Assembly (NCBI GenBank): GCA_018693795.1
Contig: JABHMJ010000022.1
Location: 146-64,145, forward strand
DNA: 64,000 nt
Source of the DNA: Candidatus Woesearchaeota archaeon
GTDB lineage: Archaea > Nanobdellota > Nanobdellia > SCGC-AAA011-G17 > PNOQ01
Direction: 5' to 3'
Positions 1,267-62,215 of this stretch are shown one piece after another (position 1 is the stretch's first letter; every line of letters begins with the position of its first letter). Below the pieces are notes generated by a model that was not told the origin of the DNA, did no database searches, and saw nothing but the letters and a program-made list of their open reading frames with translations. The position numbers and the translations under genes were made by a program.

Positions 1267-2973
1267 TTATTTCCTTTTCTTAAAGAAAAGAGAAAGGAAA
1301 TAAATTATTATAACGATTAAAGCTATATCGCCAACTATCCAGAATGTTGTTTTTGCTGTTTCGTTATCAAAAAAGTTTCCAACAGACCAACCAGTAGGTA
1401 AAAATACTGTTCCACTAGTTTCTTCGTTAGATTCTCCAGCTAAACTATCAGTTGAATCTGATTCTTCTGATTCTTCAGTTTCTTCTGATACTAAACAACC
1501 ATTAACTGTTATCTTTTCTACGTAATTTTTTTGTTCACCTAAATCATCGTAGTAAAGAGTAAATGTTAATGCATATTCTTTGTTAGCCATTCCTTCTGGG
1601 ATTGTAGCTTCTAGATATACAGTGTTATCATCATCTCGGTCATCATATTTTTCTAAATCGAATGTTTCAGAAAAAACATCAATTCCAAGTTCTGAATTAT
1701 ACATTCTTACTTTTACTGCATCATCATCTCGATCGCCAACATTTTGTACATCAACTTCTGCGTTGAAAAGATATCCACATGAAACTACAGATGGATTAAC
1801 CAAAATACTATCGATTATTACTTTATGATCTGGTCTTTCTACATCTATTTCTTCAACATCTTCAATACATTGGTGATCTTCGTTTCTGTATTCATAAGCT
1901 TTAACATGAACTTCGTATGTCCCATCATCCCAATCATCTTCAACTTCTATTTCAAATGAAAAAGTTTCTGTTTCATCTTCTTCAATATCAGTTTTTGAGC
2001 TTTTTTCACTCTCTAACTTTCTATCCTCTCCACGTTCTGTTACCCAAACTTCTACGATTACATCATCGATGTCTTCATTATCATTATTTTCAATTTCAAC
2101 ATCTATTTGTATCATGTCCCCTTGTGAGTATTCATCCTCATCTACATCGAATTCTTCAATTCTTAGTTGACCTACATCACAAAAATCAGATTCATCTAGT
2201 AAATCAAAATCTTTTATATTAACATCATGTTGATTTAACTCATCATCTGTTTTGTAAGTTTTTACATATAAATCATAATTATGATCTGCATCTAAATTAT
2301 CATTTACATCTAATGAAACTGAGAATGTTTCCTCTTGTCCATCATCAACTGTTTGATCACTTGAATCTTCAAAAGCAACTATTTGTTTTAAATCTTCATC
2401 ATATAACCAAACTTCTAGTCTTACATCAGTTAAATCTGCTGATCCATCATTTTCAATATCTAAATCGATATCCAGGATATTTCCTGCCCTCATTTGATCA
2501 GGAATATCATCATATGAATCAGTATCAATTATATTTAAGTTTCCAACACTTCCTGTGTATTGATCTACGAATACTGTGGCAGGCATTGTTGTTTGTGTTG
2601 CATTTTCAGTTACAGTTATTGTTGATTCATATTCACCCATTCTTGTAGAAAGGGGCACATTTACTGTTGCTATTACATCAGTTGAACCGTTTCCAGGCAC
2701 ATCTGCTGTACTTGGGTTAAATGTTACTGTTCCGTCAAATAAATACGTGCTTATGAATGCATTAGTATATGTAAAATCACTCGCAGAAAGCACCGCACCA
2801 GTTACATTTGTTGCATCTGGGTTTGTTAATGTTATTGTGGCGTCTTTTGATTCACCTTGATTTGCAATTCCAAAGTCAATTGGGCCTGTAGTCAAGTCAG
2901 CATTTGCTAGCGTAGCTGATAAAATCAAAAACATTGCCAAAAATATTAATTTTTTCATTCTTTTGTCCTCCAA
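1267..2973 (-). CDS. secreted acidic cell-surface protein with tripartite C-terminal sorting-like signal (motif, TM helix, KKRK)
   Basis: N-terminal signal peptide (MKKLIFLAMFLILSATLANA); many N-x-S/T sequons; Asp/Glu-rich repeated domains; Ser/Glu-rich linker; C-terminal PTGWSVGNFFDNETAKTTFW followed by a hydrophobic helix and KKRK. Confidence 0.6.
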   Translation of the reverse strand: MEDKRMKKLIFLAMFLILSATLANADLTTGPIDFGIANQGESKDATITLTNPDATNVTGAVLSASDFTYTNAFISTYLFDGTVTFNPSTADVPGNGSTDVIATVNVPLSTRMGEYESTITVTENATQTTMPATVFVDQYTGSVGNLNIIDTDSYDDIPDQMRAGNILDIDLDIENDGSADLTDVRLEVWLYDEDLKQIVAFEDSSDQTVDDGQEETFSVSLDVNDNLDADHNYDLYVKTYKTDDELNQHDVNIKDFDLLDESDFCDVGQLRIEEFDVDEDEYSQGDMIQIDVEIENNDNEDIDDVIVEVWVTERGEDRKLESEKSSKTDIEEDETETFSFEIEVEDDWDDGTYEVHVKAYEYRNEDHQCIEDVEEIDVERPDHKVIIDSILVNPSVVSCGYLFNAEVDVQNVGDRDDDAVKVRMYNSELGIDVFSETFDLEKYDDRDDDNTVYLEATIPEGMANKEYALTFTLYYDDLGEQKNYVEKITVNGCLVSEETEESEESDSTDSLAGESNEETSGTVFLPTGWSVGNFFDNETAKTTFWIVGDIALIVIIIYFLSLFFKKRK

Positions 2974-3009
2974 AATTATAATTTTGTTACACTTCTAGAG
3001 TTGTAAATC

Positions 3010-3026
3010 TGTTTATAAAGTTTACT
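3010..3026 (-). promoter_or_regulatory. BRE/TATA promoter element (AGTAAACTTTATAAACA on minus strand) upstream of surface protein gene
   Basis: TATA-like TTTATAAA about 37 nt upstream of the start at 2973. The identical 17-mer recurs upstream of the L1 operon at 7067..7083. Confidence 0.35.
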
Positions 3027-3060
3027 AAAGCTTATAAATTTATTAAAGTGTGAGAAATTA

Positions 3061-3576
3061 ATGAAATATTATTGGAATTTGGGTTTTAGATTACTTTTTG
3101 CGGTAGTTTTTGTTGTTTTTTATGAATTTTTTTATTCTGTCATTTATCCTTTAACTGTTTATCCAGCTTATTTTTTAATTAATTTATTTTATGATGCTTA
3201 TTTGGTTAATAATTCTATATTTATTTCTGGTATTGTTATTAATATTATTCCTGCTTGTATTGCTGGAATTGCTTATGCTTTGTTATTATTTTTAATAATT
3301 TTTACTAAAGGCATTAGTTTAAAGAAAAGTGTTAGGATGTTTTTATTTGGTAGTTTGTTAATTTTATTAATGAATATTTTACGTATAGATTTATTGATAT
3401 TTGTTTTGTTGGAATTTGGATCTGATTTATTTGATAAAATTCATTTAGTATTTTGGAATTTTATTTCTGGGTTGTATGTTGCTTTTGTTTGGATATTTTT
3501 GGTTAAGAAGTTTAAGGTTAAAAGTATTCCTGTTGTTTCTGATGTAAAAGAATTATATAAGAGAATAAATCCCTAA
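3061..3576 (+). CDS. archaeosortase/exosortase family protein (small variant)
   Basis: Polytopic membrane protein with an IPACIAGIAY motif (exosortase ACSG-like catalytic Cys) and an NILRI motif (conserved NxxRI Arg). It lies next to a surface protein carrying a C-terminal TM plus basic tail. Confidence 0.5.
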   Translation: MKYYWNLGFRLLFAVVFVVFYEFFYSVIYPLTVYPAYFLINLFYDAYLVNNSIFISGIVINIIPACIAGIAYALLLFLIIFTKGISLKKSVRMFLFGSLLILLMNILRIDLLIFVLLEFGSDLFDKIHLVFWNFISGLYVAFVWIFLVKKFKVKSIPVVSDVKELYKRINP

Positions 3577-46885: not shown

Positions 46886-48319
46886 ATGAAACAAACAAAA
46901 TTTACAAAAATCATAACATTATTCGCAATTTTCTTAATCTTATTAAATACTGTTTCTGCGTTAAAAATTTCAACTAGTGAAATAAATGATGTAGACCAAG
47001 GGGATAATGTTTATTTCGACGTAGAAATTGGATTATCTAGGATAGACATAATTCAATTGGTAAATGATGATATTTTTATTAGACATGCAAAATTAACAAT
47101 AACTGGTCCAAACGGATTTTATGAAACTTGTTTTGTAAAAGATGGACAATTAGTTGACTGTGATTTAGATCTTTCTGTTAAAGAGGTTATTTCTCAAAAT
47201 AAAGATCAAATTACTTATCAATTTGTTTGGAACACTCTAAGTGGGATTGAAAAAGGAACATATAATGTTAATGGGGAATTATACTTAACAAAAACTCTTG
47301 ATGCTCAATATTCTTATTGCGATATATTAGTTGGCAGGTATCAAGCATTATCTAGTTTTGATCATGTTTTACTGTATGATTCAACTTTAGATTTAAATAA
47401 TGATAATATAGTTAATTTATCGGATTTGGTTATTTTCCAATCAAACCCTATGTACAGACAAGATGGGGAATTATTTGGAAGATTTCAAGGATTTTTTATG
47501 TTGAATAAAGAATATAGGGAGTATAATTCAATGCTGGATTTGAACGAAGATGGCATCATTAACTTATCCGATTTAGTATTATTATCTCAAGAATTGGGAA
47601 ATGATAAATTAGATTTAAATGGAGATGGGATAGAAAATTTATCAGATATTGTTATACTTGCACAATATTTTGAAACAGAAAATTTAGAGTTAGATTGGAA
47701 TAATGATGGAATTGTTAATCTTTCAGATATCATATTAATAACACAATATATGGAAAATGGCAATTTAGAACTTGATATGAATGGAGATGACATTTTCAAC
47801 TTAAGTGACATCGTTATAATTTCAGAAATATATTCTAATTCAAAAATTTCAACTGAGTATGAAAGATCTTTAGACTTGGATGGAAATGGAATTGTTAATC
47901 TTTCAGATATTATTATACTTGCACAAAACATTGAAGGCTCATTTGAATTAGAAGATCTAAATGAAGATGGAATACTTGATTTAACAGAAACCATCATTGC
48001 TGCCAATGGAATAAATAATGAGGAATGGTGTGCAATGCAATTAGAAAAGATAGATGGTCTTGTTACAATATTTAATTCAGAAGAACAATCATTTGAGATA
48101 ACTTCAAGATCTTCAAATGGAGGATCTAGAAATCATGATGATGACAACTCTGCTGGAGATGACTACCAAGATTATGAATCTGGAGATGAATATGAAGGAA
48201 CATATACTCCATTTACAGAAACAAACTATTTGATGGATAATTTGTGGTCTTTAGTATTTTATCTGATTGCCATTATTGTTTCATTTAGTGGAATAGTGAT
48301 AGTTTCAAAAAAACTTTAA
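46886..48319 (+). CDS. secreted cell-surface protein with about eight dockerin-like Ca-binding repeats and C-terminal TM anchor
   Basis: Signal peptide, then repeated DLNxDGxxNLSDxVxLxQ motifs (dockerin type I-like), an acidic/Ser-rich linker, a TM helix and an SKKL tail. Confidence 0.6.
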   Translation: MKQTKFTKIITLFAIFLILLNTVSALKISTSEINDVDQGDNVYFDVEIGLSRIDIIQLVNDDIFIRHAKLTITGPNGFYETCFVKDGQLVDCDLDLSVKEVISQNKDQITYQFVWNTLSGIEKGTYNVNGELYLTKTLDAQYSYCDILVGRYQALSSFDHVLLYDSTLDLNNDNIVNLSDLVIFQSNPMYRQDGELFGRFQGFFMLNKEYREYNSMLDLNEDGIINLSDLVLLSQELGNDKLDLNGDGIENLSDIVILAQYFETENLELDWNNDGIVNLSDIILITQYMENGNLELDMNGDDIFNLSDIVIISEIYSNSKISTEYERSLDLDGNGIVNLSDIIILAQNIEGSFELEDLNEDGILDLTETIIAANGINNEEWCAMQLEKIDGLVTIFNSEEQSFEITSRSSNGGSRNHDDDNSAGDDYQDYESGDEYEGTYTPFTETNYLMDNLWSLVFYLIAIIVSFSGIVIVSKKL

Positions 48320-48325
48320 TTTTTT

Positions 48326-48640
48326 TTATTTTTCACAAATTACTTGCATTGGAAACGATTCAGTAAAATCGCAAATTAAAGATTCGCATTTTAAGCAAGG
48401 ATCGCCCTGATAACAAATTGGTTCATCTTCAAAGTTATAACAATTAAAACTTTCTGGACAATTATTCATATAATCACATTTTATTGTTTCTGGACATTCT
48501 TCAAAATTACAATTATTATTTGAATCTCTTGAAACAAATGTTCCATCTTGACACATCTTTGCTTCTTCGGTACAAGCTAAAGGTTCACCCATACAAGAAG
48601 AAATCAATACTGTTGCTAAAATTAATAATAATATTTTCAT
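48326..48640 (-). CDS. Cys-rich secreted lipoprotein-like protein (104 aa, about 17 Cys)
   Basis: Lipobox-like LISSC followed by CxxC/CNFEEC-type Cys spacing. Confidence 0.45.
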   Translation of the reverse strand: MKILLLILATVLISSCMGEPLACTEEAKMCQDGTFVSRDSNNNCNFEECPETIKCDYMNNCPESFNCYNFEDEPICYQGDPCLKCESLICDFTESFPMQVICEK

Positions 48641-49167
48641 TTTTCTATTTTTTTATAGCCAATCCACATTATTATGATTAGCTCAACTAATATTACTAAG
48701 GCTCTCCATATCTTGCTTAAATCTGAGAATGCACGTATTGTTCCATAAAATAAAACAATTAAACCTGCAAACATTAAACCTGCACCCATATAATCTGTTT
48801 TAAAATACAACCCTAGAATTACTAATATTAGGCCAATTGGGGCTATGATAAAAAATAAGTTTCTATTGTATTTTTCTTTTGCATCTTGATATTCGTTATT
48901 ACAAAAATCACATTCTTTGAATTCATTACATCCTTGATCATTTGTTTCTAGAATTGGATTTCCATTTTCTTCTAAACAACTTTGATAATCTGGACCATAG
49001 TCAAAATTACATTCTTCAATTGGTTTTACATTTGTTGGGAAAAAACGTTGTCCACTACAAAAATCATCGTAATCTGGAGAAGAATAAATTGCATCAACAA
49101 ATAACCCTACAAATAGTGGGAGAAGTATTGCTATCCCCAAAATCATGGCTAATTTTTTTGGATCCAT
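48637..49167 (-). CDS. Cys-rich membrane protein (paralogous Cys domain plus 2 C-terminal TM)
   Basis: N-terminal TM; extracellular Cys-rich domain sharing an ECNF motif with the adjacent gene; 4-nt overlap coupling. Confidence 0.45.
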   Translation of the reverse strand: MDPKKLAMILGIAILLPLFVGLFVDAIYSSPDYDDFCSGQRFFPTNVKPIEECNFDYGPDYQSCLEENGNPILETNDQGCNEFKECDFCNNEYQDAKEKYNRNLFFIIAPIGLILVILGLYFKTDYMGAGLMFAGLIVLFYGTIRAFSDLSKIWRALVILVELIIIMWIGYKKIEK

Positions 49168-49567: not shown

Positions 49568-50281
49568 TTACTTCTTTCTGAAAGATTTAGAAATTGAATC
49601 ATTCCAAAATTCAGGCAACCCTGCTTTCATTAAACCTTCAAATTCATCGGATATTACATAAAAATGTTCTTTTTTGTTTTTTATTTCAGAAAAAGAATTT
49701 CCAACTTTAATAAACATGTCTTGCAAAGCTTTTCTTTCGAATCTCGTTTGAAGTAAAGATGGTTCTTTGAATAATAAAATATCACAAAGTCTTAAAACAT
49801 TTAGATCTAGCATTGCAGAGTTTTGGGTTATGAATATCAATGAAAGATTTTTATGTCTTGCTATTGCCAATAGCTCTGCTAAATCTTTATTTGATTGTTT
49901 CATGGATGATCTTGAAGAAAACGAAATCCCCGCCTCATCAATTAATACTAAAGAATTATTTGGTATTTCTGATATGCTTTCTACATTTTGTACCCAATAA
50001 GGTATTTTTGAATTATTGAATCCAATTACAAAAATATTTTTATCCAATATTGCTGCAGTTTCAACTAATTTCATTCCTAACGCAGTTTTTCCTGCGCCCC
50101 TTCTTCCGACTATTAGCATAATTAAAGAGTGATCCCTAAATTGTGTCATGAATCCTTCAAAATCCCCATTAACAATTTGATTTACTTCAAAATTTGATAA
50201 AGCAGAATTAAACCTATCTTTTTGTGTTATTTTATGTTTCTCTTCTTTTTGTTTTTTATATTTTTTAATTGGATTGAACAT
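49568..50281 (-). CDS. P-loop NTPase (AAA+/IstB-DnaC-like minimal ATPase), unknown function
   Basis: Walker A VGRRGAGKT, Walker B LVLIDEAG, and sensor-like ITQN. Confidence 0.55.
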   Translation of the reverse strand: MFNPIKKYKKQKEEKHKITQKDRFNSALSNFEVNQIVNGDFEGFMTQFRDHSLIMLIVGRRGAGKTALGMKLVETAAILDKNIFVIGFNNSKIPYWVQNVESISEIPNNSLVLIDEAGISFSSRSSMKQSNKDLAELLAIARHKNLSLIFITQNSAMLDLNVLRLCDILLFKEPSLLQTRFERKALQDMFIKVGNSFSEIKNKKEHFYVISDEFEGLMKAGLPEFWNDSISKSFRKK

Positions 50282-50698: not shown

Positions 50699-51352
50699 TT
50701 AAGAGGCTAATTCGGCCTCAATTATTTGTTCAAAAACACTAAATGGTTGCGCACCACTCACTAAAATTCCATTAACAAATGTTGCTGGAGTTCCACGTAC
50801 ACCTGCTGCAGAACCATCTTTTATGTCATTTTGAATTTCATCATAGTATTTTCCAGAATCTAAACATACATCAAACTCATTTTGGTTTAAACCTAAATTT
50901 GCTGCGTATTGTTTAAATGAGGTTATTCCTCCAGTTACACCAGATTCAAATAACATATTGTGCATTTCATAATATTTCTCTTGATCTCCAGCACACTCTG
51001 CTGATTCAGCTGCCTTTTGAGCGTTTGTATGTAAACTTAGTGGAAAGTCCCTATAGACGAATTTTACTTTTCCAGTTTCAACATATTTTTCTTTTATTTG
51101 TTGTAATGCATCAGTATAAAATCTTCCACAAAATGGGCATTCATAATCACTGAATTCAATTATTGTTACCGGGGCATTTGCGTCTCCTAAAAAATCATCA
51201 TCATCTGCAGAAACCTGTATCCGCGTAGGTTGTCCTGTTGCTTGTCCTGTTGGAGGACTATTTTGTAAATCAGTTTTTGAATTAGAAATGAAACTAATTA
51301 TCAATACAATAGCCAAAACTCCTATAATTATTTTTAATCCTTTGTTTTCCAT
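50699..51352 (-). CDS. DsbA-like thiol:disulfide oxidoreductase (thioredoxin fold, membrane-anchored)
   Basis: N-terminal TM, CPFC active site and a helical insert. Confidence 0.75.
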   Translation of the reverse strand: MENKGLKIIIGVLAIVLIISFISNSKTDLQNSPPTGQATGQPTRIQVSADDDDFLGDANAPVTIIEFSDYECPFCGRFYTDALQQIKEKYVETGKVKFVYRDFPLSLHTNAQKAAESAECAGDQEKYYEMHNMLFESGVTGGITSFKQYAANLGLNQNEFDVCLDSGKYYDEIQNDIKDGSAAGVRGTPATFVNGILVSGAQPFSVFEQIIEAELAS

Positions 51353-51421: not shown

Positions 51422-53593
51422 CTATAATTTTTTCTTTCTTAATGCTAAAGAATTTAATATTACACTTACTGAAGACATTGCCATTGCTCCTCCGGCAATC
51501 ATTGGGTTTAACAACCATCCGGTAAATGAATAAAACACACCGGCTGCAACTGGAATTCCAAGTGTATTATAAAATAGTGCCCAAAACATGTTTTGTTTTA
51601 TTTTTGACATTGTTAATTTACTTAATCTTATTGCCTTTCCAACATCTAGCAAATTATTTCTCATTAATACAATGTTTCCTGTTTCCATTGCTACATCGGT
51701 TCCAGAACCCATTGCAATACCAATATCTGCTTGTGCTAAGGCTGGAGCATCATTTATTCCATCTCCCACCATTGCAACTTTTCCGTATTTTTGTAATTTT
51801 TTTACATAATTTGATTTATCTTCAGGGAGAACTTCAGCAAAAACATTTTTTATGCCTGCTTTTTTTGCAATTGCATTTGCAGTTCTTTTGTTATCTCCAG
51901 TAATCATGTAAACTTTTATACCCAATTTTTCCAAATATTTTATTGCAGTTGGAGATGTTTTCTTTATTGTATCTGCTACTGCGACCATGCCAATTAGTTT
52001 TTTTCCTTCAGCCAAAAACATTACAGTTTTTCCTTGTTCTTCTAAAGTCTCAAATTCATTCGAAATAATTTTTATTTTCAAATCTTTCATTAATTTTTGA
52101 TTTCCAAAATTGTATGTTTTTTTACCAATGTTTGCTTTAATTCCATGCCCAGGAATTGCATTGAAATTTGAAACTTTTTTTAGAATAATTTTGCTTTGCT
52201 TTGCTTTTTCAACTATCGCATCTGCCAATGGGTGTTCTGAATTTTTTTCTATGCTTCCTGCAATCATCAATAGTTCTTTTTCTGTTTTGTCTTTTGAAAT
52301 TATATCCGTCACTTCTGGAATTCCAGTTGTTATTGTTCCCGTTTTATCAAAAATTACATATTTTATTTTATGTGCAGTTTCTAAAGCATCTCCGCCTTTT
52401 ATCAAAATACCTTCCTTTGCTCCCTTACCCGTTCCAACCATTATTGCAGTTGGTGTTGCTAATCCTAAGGCACACGGACAGGCTATTACTAAAACCGCTA
52501 TGGCCGCAGTTAATGCAAACGTTAGGTCCGCATTAAACATTAATTTCCATGAAATGAATGTTATTATTGCAACTAATATTACTATTGGCACAAAATAAGA
52601 AGAAACCATATCTGCAAACCTTTGAATTGGTGCTTTTTTTCCTTGTGCTTCTTCTATTAATTTTATTATATGGGCAAGAGTTGTATTTTTTCCTATTTTT
52701 GTTGCTTTAAATTTGAATGAACCTTGTTTATTTATCGTCCCACCAATTACTCCATCTCCTTTCTTTTTTTCTATTGGCATACTCTCTCCAGTCACCATAG
52801 ATTCATTTATACTTGAAAATCCTTCTGTGATTATTCCATCTACTGGAATTTTTGCACCTGGTTTTATTAAGATTATATCTCCCAATTCTATCTCTTTTAA
52901 TGGAATTACTATTTCTTTTCCTTTTCTAATTACTATTGCTTTCTTTGGGGCCAGTTCCATTAATTTTTTTATTGCTCCAGAGGTTTTTGATTTTGCTAAT
53001 GCTTCTAAATATTTTCCCAATAAAACCAATGTGATTAAGACTGCAGATGCTTCAAAGTATTGTGCGTGACTTGAAGTAAATAATACTGCATATACACTAA
53101 AAAAGTATGCGGCACTTGTACCAATTGCAATTAGACTATCCATATTTGCACTTTTGTTTTTTAATGCTGCCCAAGATCCTTTGTAGAATTGGGCCCCAGC
53201 AATAAATTGTACTGGAGTCGCTAAGATCCACAATATATATTCTTCAAAAGGCATGGATATTCCTAACCACATAAATACCATTCCAATTACAAAGGTTGGG
53301 ATTGCAAATAATGAACTAAAGAAGAATAAGTTTCTTAGTTTTTTAATTTCTTTTTTTTGAGATTGAAGATCAATCCCATCTTTAAGTTGGGATGCACCAT
53401 ACCCTCTTTTTTTAATTATGCCTATTAAATTTTCTTCTTTTATTTTTTTTGGATCGTATTCTATTGTTGCTTTTTCAGTTGTTAAATTAACATTTGCGTT
53501 GATAACTCCTTTCTCTTTTTTTAATCCTTTTTCTATTACAGTAACGCAACTAGCACAATGCATTCCCTTAATTTGTAATTCTGTTTTTTTCAT
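51422..53593 (-). CDS. copA: copper-translocating P1B-type ATPase
   Basis: N-terminal HMA (GMHCASC), TM CPC motif, DKTGT phosphorylation site, and GDGxND. Confidence 0.95.
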   Translation of the reverse strand: MKKTELQIKGMHCASCVTVIEKGLKKEKGVINANVNLTTEKATIEYDPKKIKEENLIGIIKKRGYGASQLKDGIDLQSQKKEIKKLRNLFFFSSLFAIPTFVIGMVFMWLGISMPFEEYILWILATPVQFIAGAQFYKGSWAALKNKSANMDSLIAIGTSAAYFFSVYAVLFTSSHAQYFEASAVLITLVLLGKYLEALAKSKTSGAIKKLMELAPKKAIVIRKGKEIVIPLKEIELGDIILIKPGAKIPVDGIITEGFSSINESMVTGESMPIEKKKGDGVIGGTINKQGSFKFKATKIGKNTTLAHIIKLIEEAQGKKAPIQRFADMVSSYFVPIVILVAIITFISWKLMFNADLTFALTAAIAVLVIACPCALGLATPTAIMVGTGKGAKEGILIKGGDALETAHKIKYVIFDKTGTITTGIPEVTDIISKDKTEKELLMIAGSIEKNSEHPLADAIVEKAKQSKIILKKVSNFNAIPGHGIKANIGKKTYNFGNQKLMKDLKIKIISNEFETLEEQGKTVMFLAEGKKLIGMVAVADTIKKTSPTAIKYLEKLGIKVYMITGDNKRTANAIAKKAGIKNVFAEVLPEDKSNYVKKLQKYGKVAMVGDGINDAPALAQADIGIAMGSGTDVAMETGNIVLMRNNLLDVGKAIRLSKLTMSKIKQNMFWALFYNTLGIPVAAGVFYSFTGWLLNPMIAGGAMAMSSVSVILNSLALRKKKL

Positions 53594-53628
53594 TGTTATT
53601 TATGTCCTTCTGTTATTTATATCTTTAT

Positions 53629-54084
53629 TCAAAATCTGAAAGCCCCATTTGCTAATTCAGATTCACTTATTAAAATATGGTCTCCTTCAATTTTATTTTC
53701 TAAAAATGATGGCCAACATCCTCCTCCACGGTTTTCTGTACCAATAGAATCTATACTAAATACTCTTCCACAATTATTGCATACCATGTCTGTACCCTCT
53801 TGTCTATACCCCTTATATCCACCACAAACATCACAAGCATCGAAGGCCGATCTTATTTCCCCATTAGATCCTTTAACTAAAAAATATTTTACTTCTTTCC
53901 CATTTACATCAAATGAATAGTGTTTTGCAGTTTCTGAAATTTCAGAAATCGGTATTTTTATGAAAGCATCATTTGAAATTATATTTCCTGTTGGGTTTCC
54001 CTTTTGAGTAGGATTACTAGTAGTGCACCCACTCACCAAAATAATTGTTAATAAAATTATTCCATATATTATTTTATTGTTCAT
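53629..54084 (-). CDS. DUF2318-like Cys-rich lipoprotein (metal-binding, permease-associated)
   Basis: Start set at MNNK with lipobox VSGC. Contains FDACDVCGGY...CNNCG motifs. Confidence 0.5.
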   Translation of the reverse strand: MNNKIIYGIILLTIILVSGCTTSNPTQKGNPTGNIISNDAFIKIPISEISETAKHYSFDVNGKEVKYFLVKGSNGEIRSAFDACDVCGGYKGYRQEGTDMVCNNCGRVFSIDSIGTENRGGGCWPSFLENKIEGDHILISESELANGAFRF

Positions 54085-54085
54085 C

Positions 54086-55507
54086 TTATCCTCCACACCC
54101 GCATCCCCCGCCAGATGCCCCGCATGAGCCACCTTGAGGAACTTGAATATCATTTATTTTATTTGAATCTAAATTTGTTAAATCATCTACCACTACAAAA
54201 GTCCCTGGGATCATTCCCATCCAACAACTCCAAGAGATTACCCCCGTAGTCGTAGGCGTAAATTCTATTGTTTGTTCTCCAGGGGTTACTTTAAAATTTA
54301 AATTGTATTTTGGAACTTGGATTGCATTGTTACATCCATTTATTTCTTTTCCATCTATTATCCATTTTACTGGAATTCCTTTTTGTAAAACAAATTTATC
54401 TGGAGACCAACCATATCTATTCACTTCCATTCTAATCTCTTGATAATTCCCATTTAGGGTTGCTAATTCATTTGAAGGCAAATTTTCATAATTTGTTGAT
54501 TTTACTGTTGCGCCAACAATTAATGAATCATAGTCATACCCTGAACCCGTTAGAGATAGCCCCCGATTAATCATGACTATTCCAAGAATCATGACCACTA
54601 CTGCAGAGACTTTTAGGATTTTTTTTGTTGATGATGCACTAATTATCGATGTCATTATCCCAAAACCCAGTAAAACTGGTAGGGTTCCTAATCCAAATGC
54701 AGTCAAACTTAATGCTCCTTGCAACATACTTCCTGTGCCTGCCGCATAAATGTACATAGCTTGCAACGGACCGCATGCGATCATTAGACTATTCAATAAT
54801 CCAATTTTTAATGGACTTCTTGATTTTTGAGTTTCTTTCGAAGCAAATTTATTTAAGAAACTTGGAGATTTAATTCTTATTTTTCTTAACCAAGGAAATA
54901 TATTTAACATGTTCAATCCAAAAATTACTAGGAAAAGTCCTGCTAATATTGCAGCATATCCTCTTAAATTTGGGGTGAACGCAATAAACGATCCAAACAG
55001 TCCAAATATTCCCCCAATTATTGCATACCCTGTTGTTTTTCCTAAACCATATTCTAGGTGTGCACGAGTTTTCGATTTTGCTTTTGTAGCATAAGAGATT
55101 ACAAATCCCCCACACATGCCAATACAATGAAATCCAGTTAATAACCCAAGTACAAATAACAAAGCTAAAGAGGTTTCCTGAGATAAATCTGGGAAAAAAT
55201 CAAATCCCCCTGTATTTTCTAAAATTAGGTATGCACCAATCAATAAGAATGCTATTGATATTGCAATTGTAAGATATAACCTACTTTTTTTTGGTTTTAT
55301 TTCACTTGGAGAGTATCCAGATTCATCAATTATATTAAATATTTTTTCTTTAGATATTTTTTCTTCATCGAATCTAATGTTTAATTTACTTGACTCATAA
55401 TTTGCTTTTACTTCTTGAATCCCTTCTTTTTTTTCTAATGCTCTTTCTAATATTTTTTCACAGCTCCCGCAAGTCATCCCAGAAATATATATTATTTTTT
55501 CAGTCAT
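54086..55507 (-). CDS. fusion protein: N-terminal HMA domain, polytopic permease (DsbD_2/TauE-like, HCIGMCGG motif), C-terminal cupredoxin-like domain with Cys/Gly tail
   Basis: GMTCGSC HMA motif; about 8 TM helices; C-terminal beta-rich domain (TTGVISWSCWMGMIPG) ending SCGASGGGCGCGG. Confidence 0.6.
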   Translation of the reverse strand: MTEKIIYISGMTCGSCEKILERALEKKEGIQEVKANYESSKLNIRFDEEKISKEKIFNIIDESGYSPSEIKPKKSRLYLTIAISIAFLLIGAYLILENTGGFDFFPDLSQETSLALLFVLGLLTGFHCIGMCGGFVISYATKAKSKTRAHLEYGLGKTTGYAIIGGIFGLFGSFIAFTPNLRGYAAILAGLFLVIFGLNMLNIFPWLRKIRIKSPSFLNKFASKETQKSRSPLKIGLLNSLMIACGPLQAMYIYAAGTGSMLQGALSLTAFGLGTLPVLLGFGIMTSIISASSTKKILKVSAVVVMILGIVMINRGLSLTGSGYDYDSLIVGATVKSTNYENLPSNELATLNGNYQEIRMEVNRYGWSPDKFVLQKGIPVKWIIDGKEINGCNNAIQVPKYNLNFKVTPGEQTIEFTPTTTGVISWSCWMGMIPGTFVVVDDLTNLDSNKINDIQVPQGGSCGASGGGCGCGG

Positions 55508-55707
55508 ATTTTATATCCCTCTGCCATTATTTTCTTTTTTATTTTATCCACCATATCATTAGATCCATCAAATTCAATAGAAACCCTTTCTTTTTCATGG
55601 TCTGGGGTTGCAGTTTTTACTCCAGAGATTTCTTCTAATTCTTCTTTCAAAAGTATTTCGCAACTTTTGCAATGCATGCCTTTTACTTTTATTTTTTCTA
55701 AAACCAT
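55504..55707 (-). CDS. copZ: copper chaperone CopZ (HMA domain)
   Basis: 67 aa with GMHCKSC. Confidence 0.85.
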   Translation of the reverse strand: MVLEKIKVKGMHCKSCEILLKEELEEISGVKTATPDHEKERVSIEFDGSNDMVDKIKKKIMAEGYKI

Positions 55708-60850: not shown

Positions 60851-60904
60851 GGTATTTAGGTAAATGCTTAATTTTATAAATAGATTGTTTTCTCAAAGAG
60901 TTAT

Positions 60905-60979
60905 GCTCTTGTAGTGTAGTCCGGTCCAGCATTTCGGCCTCTCGCGCCGAAGACCCGGGTTCAAATCCCGGCGGGAGCA
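60905..60979 (+). tRNA. tRNA-Glu (anticodon CUC)
   Basis: Acceptor GCTCTTG/CGGGAGC (two G-U pairs), anticodon stem TCGGC/GCCGA with loop CTCTCGC, T-arm CCGGG-TTCAAAT-CCCGG. Confidence 0.75.
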
Positions 60980-61051
60980 TACGAACTTTATGTTCGAGTA
61001 ATTAGCTAAGGTAAGGTAAGGGAAAATAAAAGATTAAGGAGAACTTACCAA

Positions 61052-62215
61052 ATGAAAAAAAATAAGATAGATGTGCATTATAGCACAAAATCATTAGCTA
61101 CTGCATTAAAAAAATTAAAAGAAGACTTAACAGAAGACAACTATAAACAGATAAATAATTTCTTAACAGATTTAGATATTGGATTAACGGGTACTAAGCG
61201 ACCAAATGAGAGAACACAGTTAAAAATAATGTTTCGGCTGAAAACTTGCGCCTTATACTTCGATAAGAAGAACATAAGGATAGATAAGATAGATTTAGCC
61301 AATATGAAGCGGTTTATTTCTGACCTACAAAATGATGTAATCCAAAAACAAAGACCTAATAGCTCAAATTTGAACTATTCTGACAATACAAAGAGCGGTA
61401 TTAAGAAAGAACTCCGTCGATATCTCAAATATCGGATGGGCGAAACTGCAAAATGGAAAAAACTCACTGCGTGGTTTGATACTACGACAGACGAGCAAGA
61501 GATAATCTACATAAAGAGAGACGAAGTCAAAAGATTACTATTGAACACTGGGACATTTATGAATAAAACCATTATCCAAGTTTTGTATGATAGCGGAATG
61601 AGGGCGGAGGCATTTTTGAACTTATTCCCGTCGGATATTTCACAAGATGAGGAAACCGGTCTCTTCGTGATTGATGTTCGCCCGGAAACTACAAAAACAA
61701 AGAAGGGAAGGAAAATATTTCTGTATATGGCAGAGACCACAGAGATACTTGGAGAATATCTAAGGGGCATTAAGGACAAAGACCAAAACTCTCAGCTATT
61801 CCCCCTAACCTATGACGGACTAAGATTGATGATAAGTCGTCTAACAAAAAAGACGTTAGGTAAATCTTACACCCCTCACAGCTTCCGACGAGGTTCCGCT
61901 AGCTTTTACGCTTCAAGTCTAAACCATTATCAATTATGTCAAAGATTTTCTTGGTCAGCTTCAAGCGATATCCCAAATAAATATGTAGACTTGAGTTGTG
62001 TTAACCAAAAAAAGATAGCCAAGAAGATAACACTTGACCAAGTCGGAGAGTTCAAAGAAAGAATGAACAAATTAGAAAGTGAAAATAATCTTATGAAAGA
62101 AAACCAAAAACAATTTGAGTTAAAGACCGCGGAACTGTTATCTAAGATTATGGGGCAGATACAACAATCGGAACAAGAACCAGTTTTAGAAATCGTAGAG
62201 CAATATCGCTCTTAA
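61052..62215 (+). CDS. int: tyrosine recombinase/integrase (phage integrase family)
   Basis: Catalytic R (SGMRAEA), HxxR (HSFRRGSAS) and C-terminal Y (IPNKYVD) motifs in canonical order. Confidence 0.85.
   Translation: MKKNKIDVHYSTKSLATALKKLKEDLTEDNYKQINNFLTDLDIGLTGTKRPNERTQLKIMFRLKTCALYFDKKNIRIDKIDLANMKRFISDLQNDVIQKQRPNSSNLNYSDNTKSGIKKELRRYLKYRMGETAKWKKLTAWFDTTTDEQEIIYIKRDEVKRLLLNTGTFMNKTIIQVLYDSGMRAEAFLNLFPSDISQDEETGLFVIDVRPETTKTKKGRKIFLYMAETTEILGEYLRGIKDKDQNSQLFPLTYDGLRLMISRLTKKTLGKSYTPHSFRRGSASFYASSLNHYQLCQRFSWSASSDIPNKYVDLSCVNQKKIAKKITLDQVGEFKERMNKLESENNLMKENQKQFELKTAELLSKIMGQIQQSEQEPVLEIVEQYRS

What the first reader, a model, noticed from the sequence alone, without database searches (positions are those of the whole stretch)
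46886..48319. Surface protein with about eight tandem dockerin-like calcium-binding repeats and a C-terminal anchor resembling the 1267-2973 protein
Repeated DLNEDGIINLSDLVLLSQ-type segments match the dockerin type I Ca-binding loop (DxNxDGxxNxxD followed by a hydrophobic helix). Dockerin repeats usually come as a duplicated pair in one module, so a tandem string of them is unusual. The C-terminus (acidic/Ser-rich linker, then ...EGTYTPFTETNYLMDNLW, a TM helix and SKKL) parallels the putative archaeosortase substrate at 1267-2973. In a reduced, possibly episymbiotic archaeon this could be an adhesin for host attachment or for a cohesin partner.
Basis: partly seen in the sequence, partly recalled or inferred. 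Interest (0 to 1): 0.65.

Follow-up and report, generated by a model that had tools for sequence, protein, structure and literature searches.

The report
Archaeal surface protein with seven dockerin repeats
This gene encodes a membrane-anchored surface protein of a tiny (DPANN/Woesearchaeota) archaeon, with an antibody-like head on a string of seven calcium-binding "dockerin" units; it is real and tidy, but such strings are common in environmental proteins and no binding partner was found.

Summary
The ORF at 46886-48319 (+), 477 aa, is real and has eight orthologues kept beside the ribosomal-protein L3 operon. It has exactly seven, not eight, dockerin-type Ca2+-loop/helix units. Pfam Dockerin_1 scores 45 bits (cut-off 22.9), and all significant PDB sequence matches are dockerins. 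The order is Sec signal peptide, Ig-like β-sandwich, seven F-hand units, a conserved "WC" β-hairpin, an acidic linker, a conserved pre-TM motif, a TM helix and KKL.

A wider Woesearchaeota family keeps only the core (Ig domain, first loop, "GRF" helix, last loop, WC). Loop counts run 2, 3, 5 and 7, so this array is a lineage-specific expansion.

Tandem strings are not rare. A profile search found 1159 protein clusters, many with 5-33 consecutive loops or 3-8 adjacent Dockerin_1 modules.

The C-terminus shares the signal/TM/basic-tail architecture of the S-layer protein at 1267-2973, and a pacearchaeosortase lies at 3061-3576. Its motif, however, matches neither the S-layer C-terminus nor the "ITGAVxG" C-terminal domain of its own paralogue. 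No cohesin was found in the window proteins scanned or in the 10-kb flanks.

Verdict: an ordinary but well-defined new member of the non-cellulosomal dockerin-repeat surface proteins. Partner and processing are unknown.

The parts
46886..48319 (+). Complete CDS (477 aa plus stop) of the dockerin-repeat surface protein
   Evidence: ORF list. It is 100% identical to NCBI 'hypothetical protein HN865_04315 [Candidatus Woesearchaeota archaeon]' and has 7 further orthologues at 36-74% identity.
46886..46960 (+). Sec-type signal peptide (aa 1-25, MKQTKFTKIITLFAIFLILLNTVSA|LK)
   Evidence: Read directly from the sequence: basic N-region, hydrophobic core and V-S-A before the likely cleavage site. S24 and A25 are invariant in the orthologues. 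No signal-peptide predictor was run.
46961..47305 (+). N-terminal Ig-like β-sandwich domain (aa 26-140) with conserved C82 and C92
   Evidence: AF2 pLDDT is 71-87 and the domain is all β. Foldseek hits are only Ig V-set or nanobody folds (TM about 0.45, E about 1e-3) with no cohesin. No Pfam family matches.
47306..47380 (+). Conserved helix 'YSYC145DILVGRYQAL' preceding the array (aa 141-165)
   Evidence: AF2 helix at 144-157. G150 is invariant and C145 nearly invariant across 18 family members.
47387..47455 (+). F-hand unit 1 (aa 168-190, LDLNNDNIVNLSDLVIFQSNPMY), part of the family-wide core
   Evidence: Unit HMM gives 40.9 bits. D169, D180 and F184 are invariant in the 18-sequence family alignment.
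47456..47530 (+). 'GELFGRFQGFFML' linker helix (aa 191-215), family-wide core
   Evidence: AF2 helix at 194-213. G198 is invariant.
47534..47602 (+). F-hand unit 2 (aa 217-239)
   Evidence: Unit HMM gives 35.6 bits. Together with unit 3 it forms the best Pfam Dockerin_1 stretch, 218-262, and aligns to dockerin 2Y3N_B.
47609..47677 (+). F-hand unit 3 (aa 242-264)
   Evidence: Unit HMM gives 47.1 bits.
47690..47758 (+). F-hand unit 4 (aa 269-291)
   Evidence: Unit HMM gives 43.4 bits.
47771..47839 (+). F-hand unit 5 (aa 296-318)
   Evidence: Unit HMM gives 35.5 bits. Units 5 and 6 (spacing 33) align without gaps to a full dockerin, 4WI0_B.
47870..47938 (+). F-hand unit 6 (aa 329-351)
   Evidence: Unit HMM gives 35.3 bits.
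47951..48019 (+). F-hand unit 7 (aa 356-378, EDLNEDGILDLTETIIAANGINN), part of the family-wide core
   Evidence: Unit HMM gives 26.7 bits. It aligns with the last loop of the 2-loop relatives. AF2 pLDDT is 64-83.
48020..48100 (+). 'EEW381C382' helix plus β-hairpin (aa 379-405)
   Evidence: W381 and C382 are invariant in 18 sequences. AF2 gives a helix at 379-389 and strands at 393-397 and 401-405, with pLDDT about 80.
48101..48196 (+). Low-complexity acidic/Ser/Asn linker (aa 406-437)
   Evidence: pLDDT is about 30. It is the least conserved region, at 40% mean pairwise identity.
48197..48247 (+). Conserved pre-TM motif E-G-T-[YF]-T-P-x-x-E-x8-W (aa 438-454)
   Evidence: T441, P442, E445 and W454 are invariant in the 8 orthologues although the linker is variable. 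The motif matches neither the S-layer C-term HMM (E=3.6) nor the ITGAV-type HMM (no hit at E<=1).
48248..48316 (+). C-terminal TM helix plus short basic tail (aa 455-477, SLVFYLIAIIVSFSGIVIVS-KKL)
   Evidence: Read directly from the sequence. AF2 gives a helix at 446-476. The tail is K[KR][LFI] in all orthologues.
3061..3576 (+). Context: pacearchaeosortase, the candidate processing enzyme
   Evidence: NCBIfam NF033505 gives E=1.3e-39 and 136 bits (cut-off 80). The TIGR04178 exo/archaeosortase signature gives 7e-9.
1267..2973 (-). Context: PACE-CTERM-PROT putative S-layer protein, the comparison protein of the finding
   Evidence: NF033506 gives E=1.2e-44 and 153 bits (cut-off 110). C-termini of 40 homologues were compared.

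Best explanation
The gene encodes a type-I surface protein of a Woesearchaeota (DPANN) archaeon, N-terminus outside and C-terminal TM anchor.

Proposed path:
1. After Sec export and signal-peptide removal, the protein is held in the membrane by its C-terminal helix. Its KKL tail stays in the cytoplasm.
2. A roughly 30-residue disordered acidic linker and a small β-hairpin carry a helical array of seven dockerin-type F-hand units. Each unit is a 12-residue Ca2+ loop, D1-N3-D5-(D/N)9-(D/E)12, followed by a hydrophobic helix.
3. The array ends distally in an Ig-like β-sandwich 'head'.
4. Ca2+ binding, up to seven ions, is expected to fold and stiffen the array.

The array is bracketed by the conserved C145 and invariant C382, which I infer form a clasping disulfide. 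DsbA- and DsbD-like genes lie nearby.

The array arose by expansion of a two-loop, dockerin-like core that is conserved across a wider Woesearchaeota family. Loop counts are 2, 3, 5 and 7 in different lineages.

The most likely role is a Ca2+-dependent protein-docking or adhesion stalk on the cell surface. The F-hand units would offer one to several binding sites for a cohesin-like or other β-sandwich partner, on the cell's own envelope or on another cell. The array would also project the Ig-like head away from the membrane.

Shown: gene, domain order, dockerin-type repeats, Ca-ligand conservation, family, expansion and synteny. Inferred: Ca2+ binding, the disulfide, surface display and the docking function. 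Whether the C-terminus is cleaved by the pacearchaeosortase is open. I lean towards a plain TM anchor or a divergent signal.
For: - Gene and orthologues. Synteny beside the L3 operon is conserved in five loci.
- Dockerin identity: Pfam Dockerin_1 scores 45.1 bits against a cut-off of 22.9. In the profile-versus-PDB search every hit at E<=0.1 is a dockerin-bearing chain, best 2Y3N_B at 4.8e-9. Units 5+6 align gap-free to 4WI0_B.
- Ca-ligand positions 1, 3, 5, 9 and 12 are 92-100% D/N/E across 49 unit copies. N/D interchange at position 9 and S/T at position 11 are as in dockerins.
- There are exactly seven units, far above chance.
- Domain order and confidence: AF2 gives pLDDT 70-87 for the Ig domain and the core (40-210, 355-405). 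Helices follow every loop. The Ig-like fold comes from Foldseek.
- Family core and the 2/3/5/7 expansion, with invariant C92, D169, D180, G198, W381 and C382. Relatives come and are named Woesearchaeota.
- The protein evolves faster (57-65% identity) than its neighbours (r-proteins 74-98%, most above 80%; S-layer 87%), as expected for an exposed interaction protein.
- DsbA-like and DsbD-like genes are in the window.
- Single dockerin repeats can bind cohesin on their own (PMC12270676). Archaeal dockerin-cohesin pairs are reported to bind specifically (PMC9012536).
Against: - No cohesin (PF00963) or cohesin-like fold was found in the protein itself, in the window's secreted or unannotated proteins, or in the 10 kb on either side. 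The rest of the genome could not be scanned.
- The inserted units 2-6 are modelled with low confidence (pLDDT about 40), so their packing and pairing register are unknown.
- Most loop spacings (25-27 residues) are shorter than the 32-35 of canonical dockerins. The Pfam score is modest compared with 80-265 bits for other tandem-dockerin proteins.
- The conserved L10, S/T11, A17 and Q18 positions could reflect inter-unit packing rather than a ligand surface.
- There is no experimental data for any member.
Confidence: 0.6

Rival explanations
1. Pure spacer or stalk. The F-hand array binds nothing except Ca2+. It acts as a Ca2+-rigidified rod whose length (2 to 7 units) sets how far the Ig-like head, the real ligand-binding part, projects through or above the S-layer.
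For: - Unit number varies among lineages (2, 3, 5, 7) while the Ig domain and core are kept.
- The Ig domain is the more variable folded part (61% against 70% identity for the array), as expected if it carries specificity.
- No cohesin was found.
- The units are uniform and closely spaced, like a solenoid.
Against: - Positions that contact cohesin in dockerins (10, 11, 17, 18) are conserved across units and orthologues, which a mere spacer would not need.
- No confident model shows a rod.
- Single dockerin repeats are competent binders (PMC12270676).
Confidence: 0.25
2. Pacearchaeosortase substrate. The C-terminal [YF]-T-P-x-x-E...W / TM / KKL segment is a sorting signal. The TM helix is cleaved off and the protein is lipid-anchored or attached to the S-layer, like PGF-CTERM proteins processed by ArtA.
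For: - The archaeosortase gene is in the same window.
- The tripartite layout (conserved motif, hydrophobic helix, basic tail) fits the definition in PMC6098224.
- T441, P442, E445 and W454 are invariant after a hypervariable linker.
- The S-layer orthologues have [FY]-[LMI]-P-T-G at a similar place, giving a shared G-T-x-[FY]-x-P look.
Against: - The S-layer C-terminus HMM does not detect this protein (E=3.6).
- The C-terminal segment of NF033506 matches the 'GITGGVIGAG' type only.
- A paralogue (P0149) and its neighbour in a sister genome share a distinct 'ITGAVxGxG..GxGET.SY' C-terminal domain (E=1.6e-12). The seven-repeat subfamily lacks that domain.
- The motif lies 8-12 residues upstream of the TM helix rather than abutting it as PGF or PEP do (my knowledge of those signals).
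Confidence: 0.3
3. Surface Ca2+ store or envelope stabiliser. The acidic, multi-site Ca2+-binding protein mainly sequesters divalent cations at the membrane/S-layer interface and has no specific partner.
For: - There are seven predicted Ca2+ sites plus an acidic linker.
- The gene is a single-copy, syntenic, 'housekeeping-like' gene beside the ribosomal operon.
Against: - Conservation of an Ig-like head, a WC hairpin and non-ligand helix positions is unnecessary for ion storage.
- It diverges faster than true housekeeping neighbours.
- Relatives with only two loops would be poor stores.
Confidence: 0.1

Closest known systems
Type I dockerin modules of bacterial cellulosomal proteins (Pfam PF00404; e.g. 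B. cellulosolvens Cel48 dockerin 2Y3N_B, C. thermocellum Xyn10B dockerin 1OHZ_B/2CCL_B, A. cellulolyticus ScaB X-dockerin 4WI0_B)
   Same: - The 12-residue Ca2+ loop (D1, N3, D5, D/N9, D/E12) followed by a hydrophobic helix.
- A Pfam score above threshold.
- Adjacent unit pairs that align to whole dockerins.
   Different: - Seven units instead of two.
- Loop-to-loop spacing mostly 25-27 residues rather than 32-35, so there is no room for the middle helix. Only units 5-6 have canonical spacing.
- Carried by a membrane-anchored, non-enzymatic archaeal protein.
- No cohesin identified.
Uncharacterised metagenomic proteins with tandem Dockerin_1 arrays (e.g. P0054, 2148 aa with 30 loops, named by JGI 'Ca2+-binding EF-hand superfamily protein'; P0061, P0069, P0098, P0127 with 5-8 adjacent Dockerin_1 modules)
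   Same: Back-to-back strings of the same F-hand unit. They match the window's array over 130-170 residues.
   Different: - They lack the Ig-like head, the GRF helix, the WC hairpin and the C-terminal anchor of this family.
- Most show alternating spacing of about 33/27 (whole modules in tandem).
- They have much higher Pfam scores (80-265 bits against 45).
Two-loop Woesearchaeota relatives and paralogues of the same family (P0055, P0056 = MBS3172589-like 'Ca. Woesearchaeota archaeon', P0058, P0060, P0149)
   Same: Signal peptide, Ig-like domain with the conserved Cys pair, the C145 helix, first loop, GRF helix, last loop, invariant WC, hairpin, low-complexity linker and C-terminal TM anchor.
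   Different: - They have only 2 loops (3 in P0053, 5 in P0008/P0052).
- Many have a GYGYGYG insert in the Ig domain.
- Their C-terminus is the 'ITGAVxGxG...GxGxT.SY' domain rather than 'GT[YF]TPxxE...W'.
Non-cellulosomal archaeal dockerin/cohesin proteins (Archaeoglobus fulgidus, ANME archaea)
   Same: Dockerin-type modules on archaeal extracellular proteins with no link to cellulose. Archaeal pairs are reported to bind specifically (PMC9012536).
   Different: - Those proteins carry one dockerin, and in ANME often several cohesins or a substrate-binding protein.
- Here there is a seven-unit array, no cohesin, and a DPANN host lineage.
Archaeosortase substrates (PGF-CTERM/ArtA; PACE-CTERM-PROT, NF033506)
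   Same: Sec signal peptide, extracellular domains, low-complexity linker, then conserved motif, TM helix and basic tail. An archaeosortase gene is in the same genome.
   Different: The motif is not PGF. It is not the 'ITGGVIG' of the NF033506 model and not the '[FY]LPTG' of the neighbouring S-layer protein. No profile-level similarity was found.

Membership tests
Dockerin type I (Pfam PF00404) | Sequence matches the family HMM above the curated gathering score | tested here: met
   45.1 bits against a cut-off of 22.9, E=1.2e-11, 2 stretches. In the PDB profile search every hit at E<=0.1 is a dockerin-bearing chain.
Dockerin type I (Pfam PF00404) | Repeated ~22-residue segments, each a 12-residue EF-hand-like Ca2+ loop (ligands at 1, 3, 5, 9, 12) plus a helix (F-hand) | tested here: met
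   There are seven units. Over 49 unit copies D1 is 100%, N3 92%, D5 92%, D/N9 94% and D/E12 100%. AF2 places a helix after each loop.
Dockerin type I (Pfam PF00404) | Module made of exactly two segments joined by a third helix (loop-to-loop distance about 32-35 residues) | tested here: inconclusive
   Spacings are 49, 25, 27, 27, 33 and 27, so only units 5-6 are canonical. The Pfam alignment of units 2-3 covers 54 model positions with 45 residues. The packing of units 2-6 is not confidently modelled.
Dockerin type I (Pfam PF00404) | Binds a cognate cohesin module | not testable with these tools
   Binding cannot be tested. As a proxy, no cohesin was found in the window's secreted or unannotated proteins, in the 10-kb flanks, or in the protein's N-domain.
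Archaeosortase / pacearchaeosortase substrate (PACE-CTERM type) | Genome encodes the cognate archaeosortase | tested here: met
   Pacearchaeosortase at 3061-3576, NF033505 136 bits (cut-off 80).
Archaeosortase / pacearchaeosortase substrate (PACE-CTERM type) | C-terminal tripartite structure: conserved motif, hydrophobic helix, basic tail | tested here: met
   Invariant T441, P442, E445 and W454, a 20-22-residue hydrophobic helix, and a K[KR][LFI] tail. The definition is from PMC6098224.
Archaeosortase / pacearchaeosortase substrate (PACE-CTERM type) | The signature motif is the one shared by the other putative substrates of the same genome or lineage | tested here: not met
   The S-layer C-term HMM gives E=3.6. 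The ITGAV-type C-terminal-domain HMM hits a paralogue and its neighbour (2.5e-22 and 1.6e-12) but not this subfamily. The C-terminal segment of NF033506 matches only the 'ITGGVIG' type.
Archaeosortase / pacearchaeosortase substrate (PACE-CTERM type) | C-terminal helix is removed and the protein is lipid-attached in vivo | not testable with these tools
   This needs proteomics or genetics.
Cohesin (PF00963), for the N-terminal domain | Nine-stranded jelly-roll β-sandwich matching cohesin HMMs or structures | tested here: not met
   No Pfam hit for aa 26-165, no cohesin among the PDB sequence hits, and Foldseek returns Ig V-set-like folds only.
Canonical EF-hand proteins (PF13499 and related) | Helix-loop-helix pairs scoring above the EF-hand gathering thresholds | tested here: not met
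   EF-hand_8 scores 15.9 bits (cut-off 28) and EF-hand_6 10.5 bits (cut-off 25). Excalibur passes only as a summed score with no individual stretch.

The most novel reading that the evidence does not exclude
The protein is a cell-anchored 'reverse scaffoldin'. Instead of one dockerin per enzyme and many cohesins per scaffold, a DPANN episymbiont displays a polyvalent string of single-repeat dockerins. Several of these engage cohesin-like or Ig-like modules at once, on a host cell's surface or on its own S-layer. Lineage-specific expansion from 2 to 7 units tunes avidity and reach, which would make the protein a core part of the attachment apparatus.
Probability: 0.15. Interest if true: 0.7.

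Novelty: new member of a known kind. Interest (0 to 1): 0.35.

Why it matters
How DPANN archaea attach to and recognise their partners is largely unknown, and few conserved surface proteins have been defined for Woesearchaeota.

This family has several features that make it a reasonable candidate for expression, Ca2+-binding and pull-down experiments:
- It is single-copy and syntenic.
- It combines an Ig-like head with an expandable Ca2+-dependent dockerin array.
- The 2/3/5/7 series of unit numbers is a natural experiment on repeat expansion.

The work also shows that the lineage carries at least three different C-terminal anchor motifs. That matters for defining what the pacearchaeosortase actually recognises.

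The building blocks themselves are well known. Tandem dockerin arrays are widespread in environmental proteomes, and nothing here yet points to a new mechanism.

Tried and rejected
1. Eighth repeat. A unit HMM at permissive thresholds finds only seven units, and the 'GRF' helix region does not score.
2. Recent DNA duplication. TRF finds no tandem repeat and units are 44-72% identical at nucleotide level.
3. N-glycosylation sequon reading of 'N-L-S'. Rejected, because position 9 alternates N/D in orthologues, as a Ca ligand would.
4. N-terminal domain as a cohesin. Rejected.
5. S-layer protein 1267-2973 as a recognisable cohesin carrier. It has no PDB sequence match at all, and its Pfam hits are CARDB/Ig-like families only.
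6. Shared sorting signal with the S-layer protein. Two HMM tests were negative, and NCBIfam has no separate PACE-CTERM domain model that hits it.
7. The 165-aa gene found upstream of some orthologues. It has no homologue in the window.
8. Searches that led nowhere:
   - The third homologue search, with the wider alignment, returned only one new protein because repeat words swamped candidate selection.
   - The genome-contig scan with alignment A2 failed for lack of a conserved stretch. With A1 it found only two species representatives.
   - 'pacearchaeosortase' is in no held paper, and Peer et al. 2009 (PMC3035643) is not held.
   - No paper links dockerins with Woesearchaeota or Pacearchaeota.
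Full report
**1. Is it there?**

The ORF 46886..48319 (+) encodes 477 aa. The window has 30% G+C. It carries an archaeal ribosomal-protein operon directly upstream on the other strand.

NCBI names the identical protein 'hypothetical protein HN865_04315 [Candidatus Woesearchaeota archaeon]'.

A loop pattern D-x-[ND]-x-[DN]-[GDN]-x-x-[ND]-x-[ST]-[DE] occurs at aa 169, 218, 243, 270, 297, 330 and 357, with spacings of 49, 25, 27, 27, 33 and 27. Shuffled versions of the protein give 0.0026 matches each. The six-frame translation of the whole window has no other match.

An HMM built from the 23-aa unit finds exactly seven units (26.7-47.1 bits) and nothing else in the protein or in any other window protein. 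The count is therefore seven, not 'about eight'.

At DNA level there is no tandem repeat, and unit pairs are 44-72% identical, so the duplications are old.

**2. Are the units dockerin-like?**

Yes.
- Pfam Dockerin_1 scores 45.1 bits (cut-off 22.9, E=1.2e-11). EF-hand models stay below threshold, and Excalibur passes only as a summed score.
- A profile of the eight orthologues searched against all PDB sequences returns only dockerin-bearing chains at E<=0.1. The best is 2Y3N_B at 4.8e-9. Units 5+6, spaced 33 residues, align gap-free to the A. cellulolyticus ScaB dockerin 4WI0_B. Units 2+3 need an 8-residue deletion in the linker.
- Over 49 unit copies (7 units in 7 orthologues) the Ca-ligand positions are D1 100%, N3 92%, D5 92%, D/N9 94% and D/E12 100%.
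- The consensus is L-D-L-N-G-D-G-I-V-[DN]-L-[ST]-D-[IL]-V-[LI]-L-A-Q.
- The N/D alternation at position 9 argues for metal ligation and against an N-glycosylation sequon.

**3. Anatomy of the whole protein**

From sequence, the orthologue alignment and two AF2 runs, the order is:
- Signal peptide, aa 1-25 (…VSA|LK).
- All-β domain, aa 26-140 (pLDDT 71-87), with conserved C82 and C92.
- Helix 144-157, carrying C145.
- Unit 1.
- A long 'GELFGRFQGFFML' helix.
- Units 2-7.
- An 'EEWC382' helix and a β-hairpin at 393-405.
- A disordered acidic/Ser/Asn linker (pLDDT about 30).
- The motif E-G-T-[YF]-T-P-x-x-E-x8-W.
- A 20-22-residue hydrophobic helix and the KKL tail.

Foldseek against the PDB matches the N-domain only to Ig V-set or nanobody-like folds (TM about 0.45, E about 1e-3). 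It never matches cohesins, although many cohesin structures are in that library.

Units 2-6 are modelled as loop plus helix, but their mutual arrangement has low confidence (pLDDT about 40). The pairing register is therefore open. Every adjacent pair can be aligned to some dockerin.

**4. Family and evolution**

The word-indexed search finds only eight orthologues at 36-100% identity. Only two GTDB species representatives carry the gene, both Woesearchaeota MAGs.

The gene sits beside the L3-L4-L23-L2 operon in every locus examined.

The exhaustive profile search found two kinds of hit.

First, about 18 representatives share the N-terminal domain and the core but have fewer loops. One cluster is named Woesearchaeota.

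The 18-sequence alignment shows a conserved core. It runs: Ig domain, C145 helix, loop 1, GRF helix, last loop, invariant W381-C382, hairpin. The invariant residues are C92, Y126, G150, D169, D180, F184, G198, W381 and C382.

The number of loop-helix units after the GRF helix is:
- 1 in P0055, P0056, P0058, P0060, P0062, P0068 and P0149.
- 2 in P0053.
- 4 in P0008 and P0052.
- 6 in the window protein and P0002-P0007.

The window protein is therefore an expanded variant of a two-loop, dockerin-like surface protein.

Between the same genome pairs it is 57-65% identical. Ribosomal proteins are 74-98% (most above 80%), the neighbouring Zot-like ATPase 89-91%, and the S-layer protein 87%. Within the protein, the linker is the least conserved region (40%), the Ig head is at 61% and the array at 70%.

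Second, more than a hundred unrelated proteins match only the array, over 130-170 residues.
- Counting loops in the 148 listed hits gives runs of at least 5 consecutive loops in 51 of them, and up to 30 and 33 loops.
- The spacing often alternates around 33/27.
- Ten of these hits were scanned, and each carries 3-8 adjacent Dockerin_1 modules with 78-265 bits.

In characterised cellulosomes two dockerins in one polypeptide is called rare (PMC4217186). In environmental proteomes, tandem strings are commonplace. This sample is biased towards multi-repeat proteins because the query is itself a repeat array, but it does show that such proteins are numerous (1159 clusters at E<=1e-3).

**5. The C-terminal anchor**

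The window does hold a pacearchaeosortase (3061-3576, NF033505, 136 bits). Next to it, on the other strand, is a PACE-CTERM-PROT S-layer protein (1267-2973, NF033506, 153 bits). An archaeosortase system is therefore present.

The anchor has the tripartite layout that defines sortase, exosortase and archaeosortase substrates (PMC6098224). T441, P442, E445 and W454 are invariant after a hypervariable linker.

The close S-layer orthologues have an invariant [FY]-[LMI]-P-T-G-[WFS] about 17 residues before their TM helix. This gives a superficial G-T-x-[FY]-x-P similarity.

The formal tests are negative:
- An HMM of 40 S-layer C-termini scores this protein at E=3.6.
- The C-terminal part of the NF033506 model matches only the 'GITGGVIGAG…' type of distant S-layer proteins. 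It matches neither window protein.
- P0149 is a two-loop paralogue encoded in the same sister genome (GCA_964344655.1) as orthologue P0003 and S-layer P0012. P0149 and the unrelated gene just upstream of it share a distinct C-terminal domain, 'ITGAVxGxG…GxGET.SY', then TM and a basic tail (HMM E=2.5e-22 and 1.6e-12).
- That domain resembles the NF033506 type and is absent from the seven-repeat subfamily.

The lineage thus has at least three different pre-TM motifs. This protein's motif is the least like the canonical one. I rate sortase processing at about 0.3. A plain TM anchor, or a diverged signal, is at least as likely.

**6. Partner search**

No cohesin was detected in any of these places:
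- Ten secreted, membrane or unannotated window proteins.
- The S-layer protein, which has no PDB sequence match and only CARDB/Ig-like Pfam families.
- The precomputed Pfam annotation of the 10 kb beyond either window end.
- The neighbourhoods of four orthologues and the paralogue.

The remaining roughly 90 kb of the contig, and the rest of the genome, could not be examined.

**7. Mechanism**

Best-supported reading: a Sec-exported, C-terminally membrane-anchored protein. Its seven F-hand units bind Ca2+ and fold into a helical array that carries an Ig-like head away from the membrane.

The array is bracketed by C145 and C382, which I infer form a clasp. The inference rests on their conservation and on the DsbA/DsbD-like genes at 50699-51352 and 54086-55507. 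An intramolecular clasp is a known dockerin feature in R. flavefaciens ScaA (title of PMC3821032).

The non-ligand positions 10, 11, 17 and 18 are the cohesin-contact positions of type I dockerins (my knowledge of the C. thermocellum complexes). They are conserved across units and orthologues. Single dockerin repeats can bind cohesin alone (PMC12270676). I therefore favour a Ca2+-dependent docking or adhesion role over a pure spacer. The spacer model (0.25) is not excluded, and the two are not mutually exclusive.

**8. Verdict**

- The claimed unusualness of the tandem string, and the equivalence of the anchors, are not borne out. The adhesin or cohesin idea is untested.
- This is a new, uncharacterised member of the known class of non-cellulosomal dockerin-repeat surface proteins. 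Its lineage-specific repeat expansion is of modest interest.

Noticed in passing
window 60904-62215 and on to about 64000: tRNA-Glu (60904-60980, +) is followed directly by a tyrosine integrase (61052-62215, PF00589) and a run of small ORFs, including a NikA-like one. This looks like a mobile element integrated at a tRNA.
   Followed up: partly
window 49568-50281 (-): A Zot-like or archaeal ATPase_2 P-loop protein (237 aa) stays within about 3 kb of the dockerin-repeat gene in every locus seen, including the rearranged P0008 locus. It is 89-91% identical between species.
   Followed up: partly
L008 9146-9895 and 10001-11119 (GCA_964344655.1 contig 4): Two adjacent genes, a 249-aa secreted protein and the 2-loop paralogue P0149, share a roughly 50-aa C-terminal domain: 'ITGAVxGxG..GxGET.SY', then a TM helix and a basic tail (HMM E=1.6e-12). 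It resembles the C-terminus of the NF033506 model and may be the true pacearchaeosortase sorting signal.
   Followed up: partly
window 1267-3576: The pacearchaeosortase (3061-3576, +) is divergently adjacent to the PACE-CTERM-PROT S-layer gene (1267-2973, -). In this lineage the S-layer C-terminus carries an invariant [FY][LMI]PTG[WFS] motif, reminiscent of LPXTG, instead of the model's 'ITGGVIG'.
   Followed up: partly
window 48326-49167 (-): Two small Cys-rich proteins lie immediately downstream: a 104-aa secreted protein, possibly a lipoprotein, and a 176-aa membrane protein. Neither has a Pfam match. Both are conserved in the sister genome at 69-76% identity but absent from the more distant loci.
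   Followed up: partly
window 51422-55707 (-): A copper or heavy-metal cluster. It holds a P-type ATPase with an HMA domain, an HMA-DsbD_2-cupredoxin-like fusion ending in a Cys/Gly-rich tail, and a small HMA chaperone. A DsbA-like thioredoxin lies nearby at 50699-51352.
   Followed up: no
relatives P0056, P0058, P0060, P0062, P0068, P0073 (no window coordinates): The Ig-like domain of many family relatives carries a 30-45-residue GYGYGYGYG low-complexity insert. P0073 and P0088 also have large extra domains inserted into the core.
   Followed up: no
JGI sample 3300072015: The window's own contig (156 kb) and the contig of the 36%-identical, 5-loop orthologue P0008 (170 kb) come from the same metagenome. 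Two related Woesearchaeota with different repeat numbers therefore co-occur.
   Followed up: no
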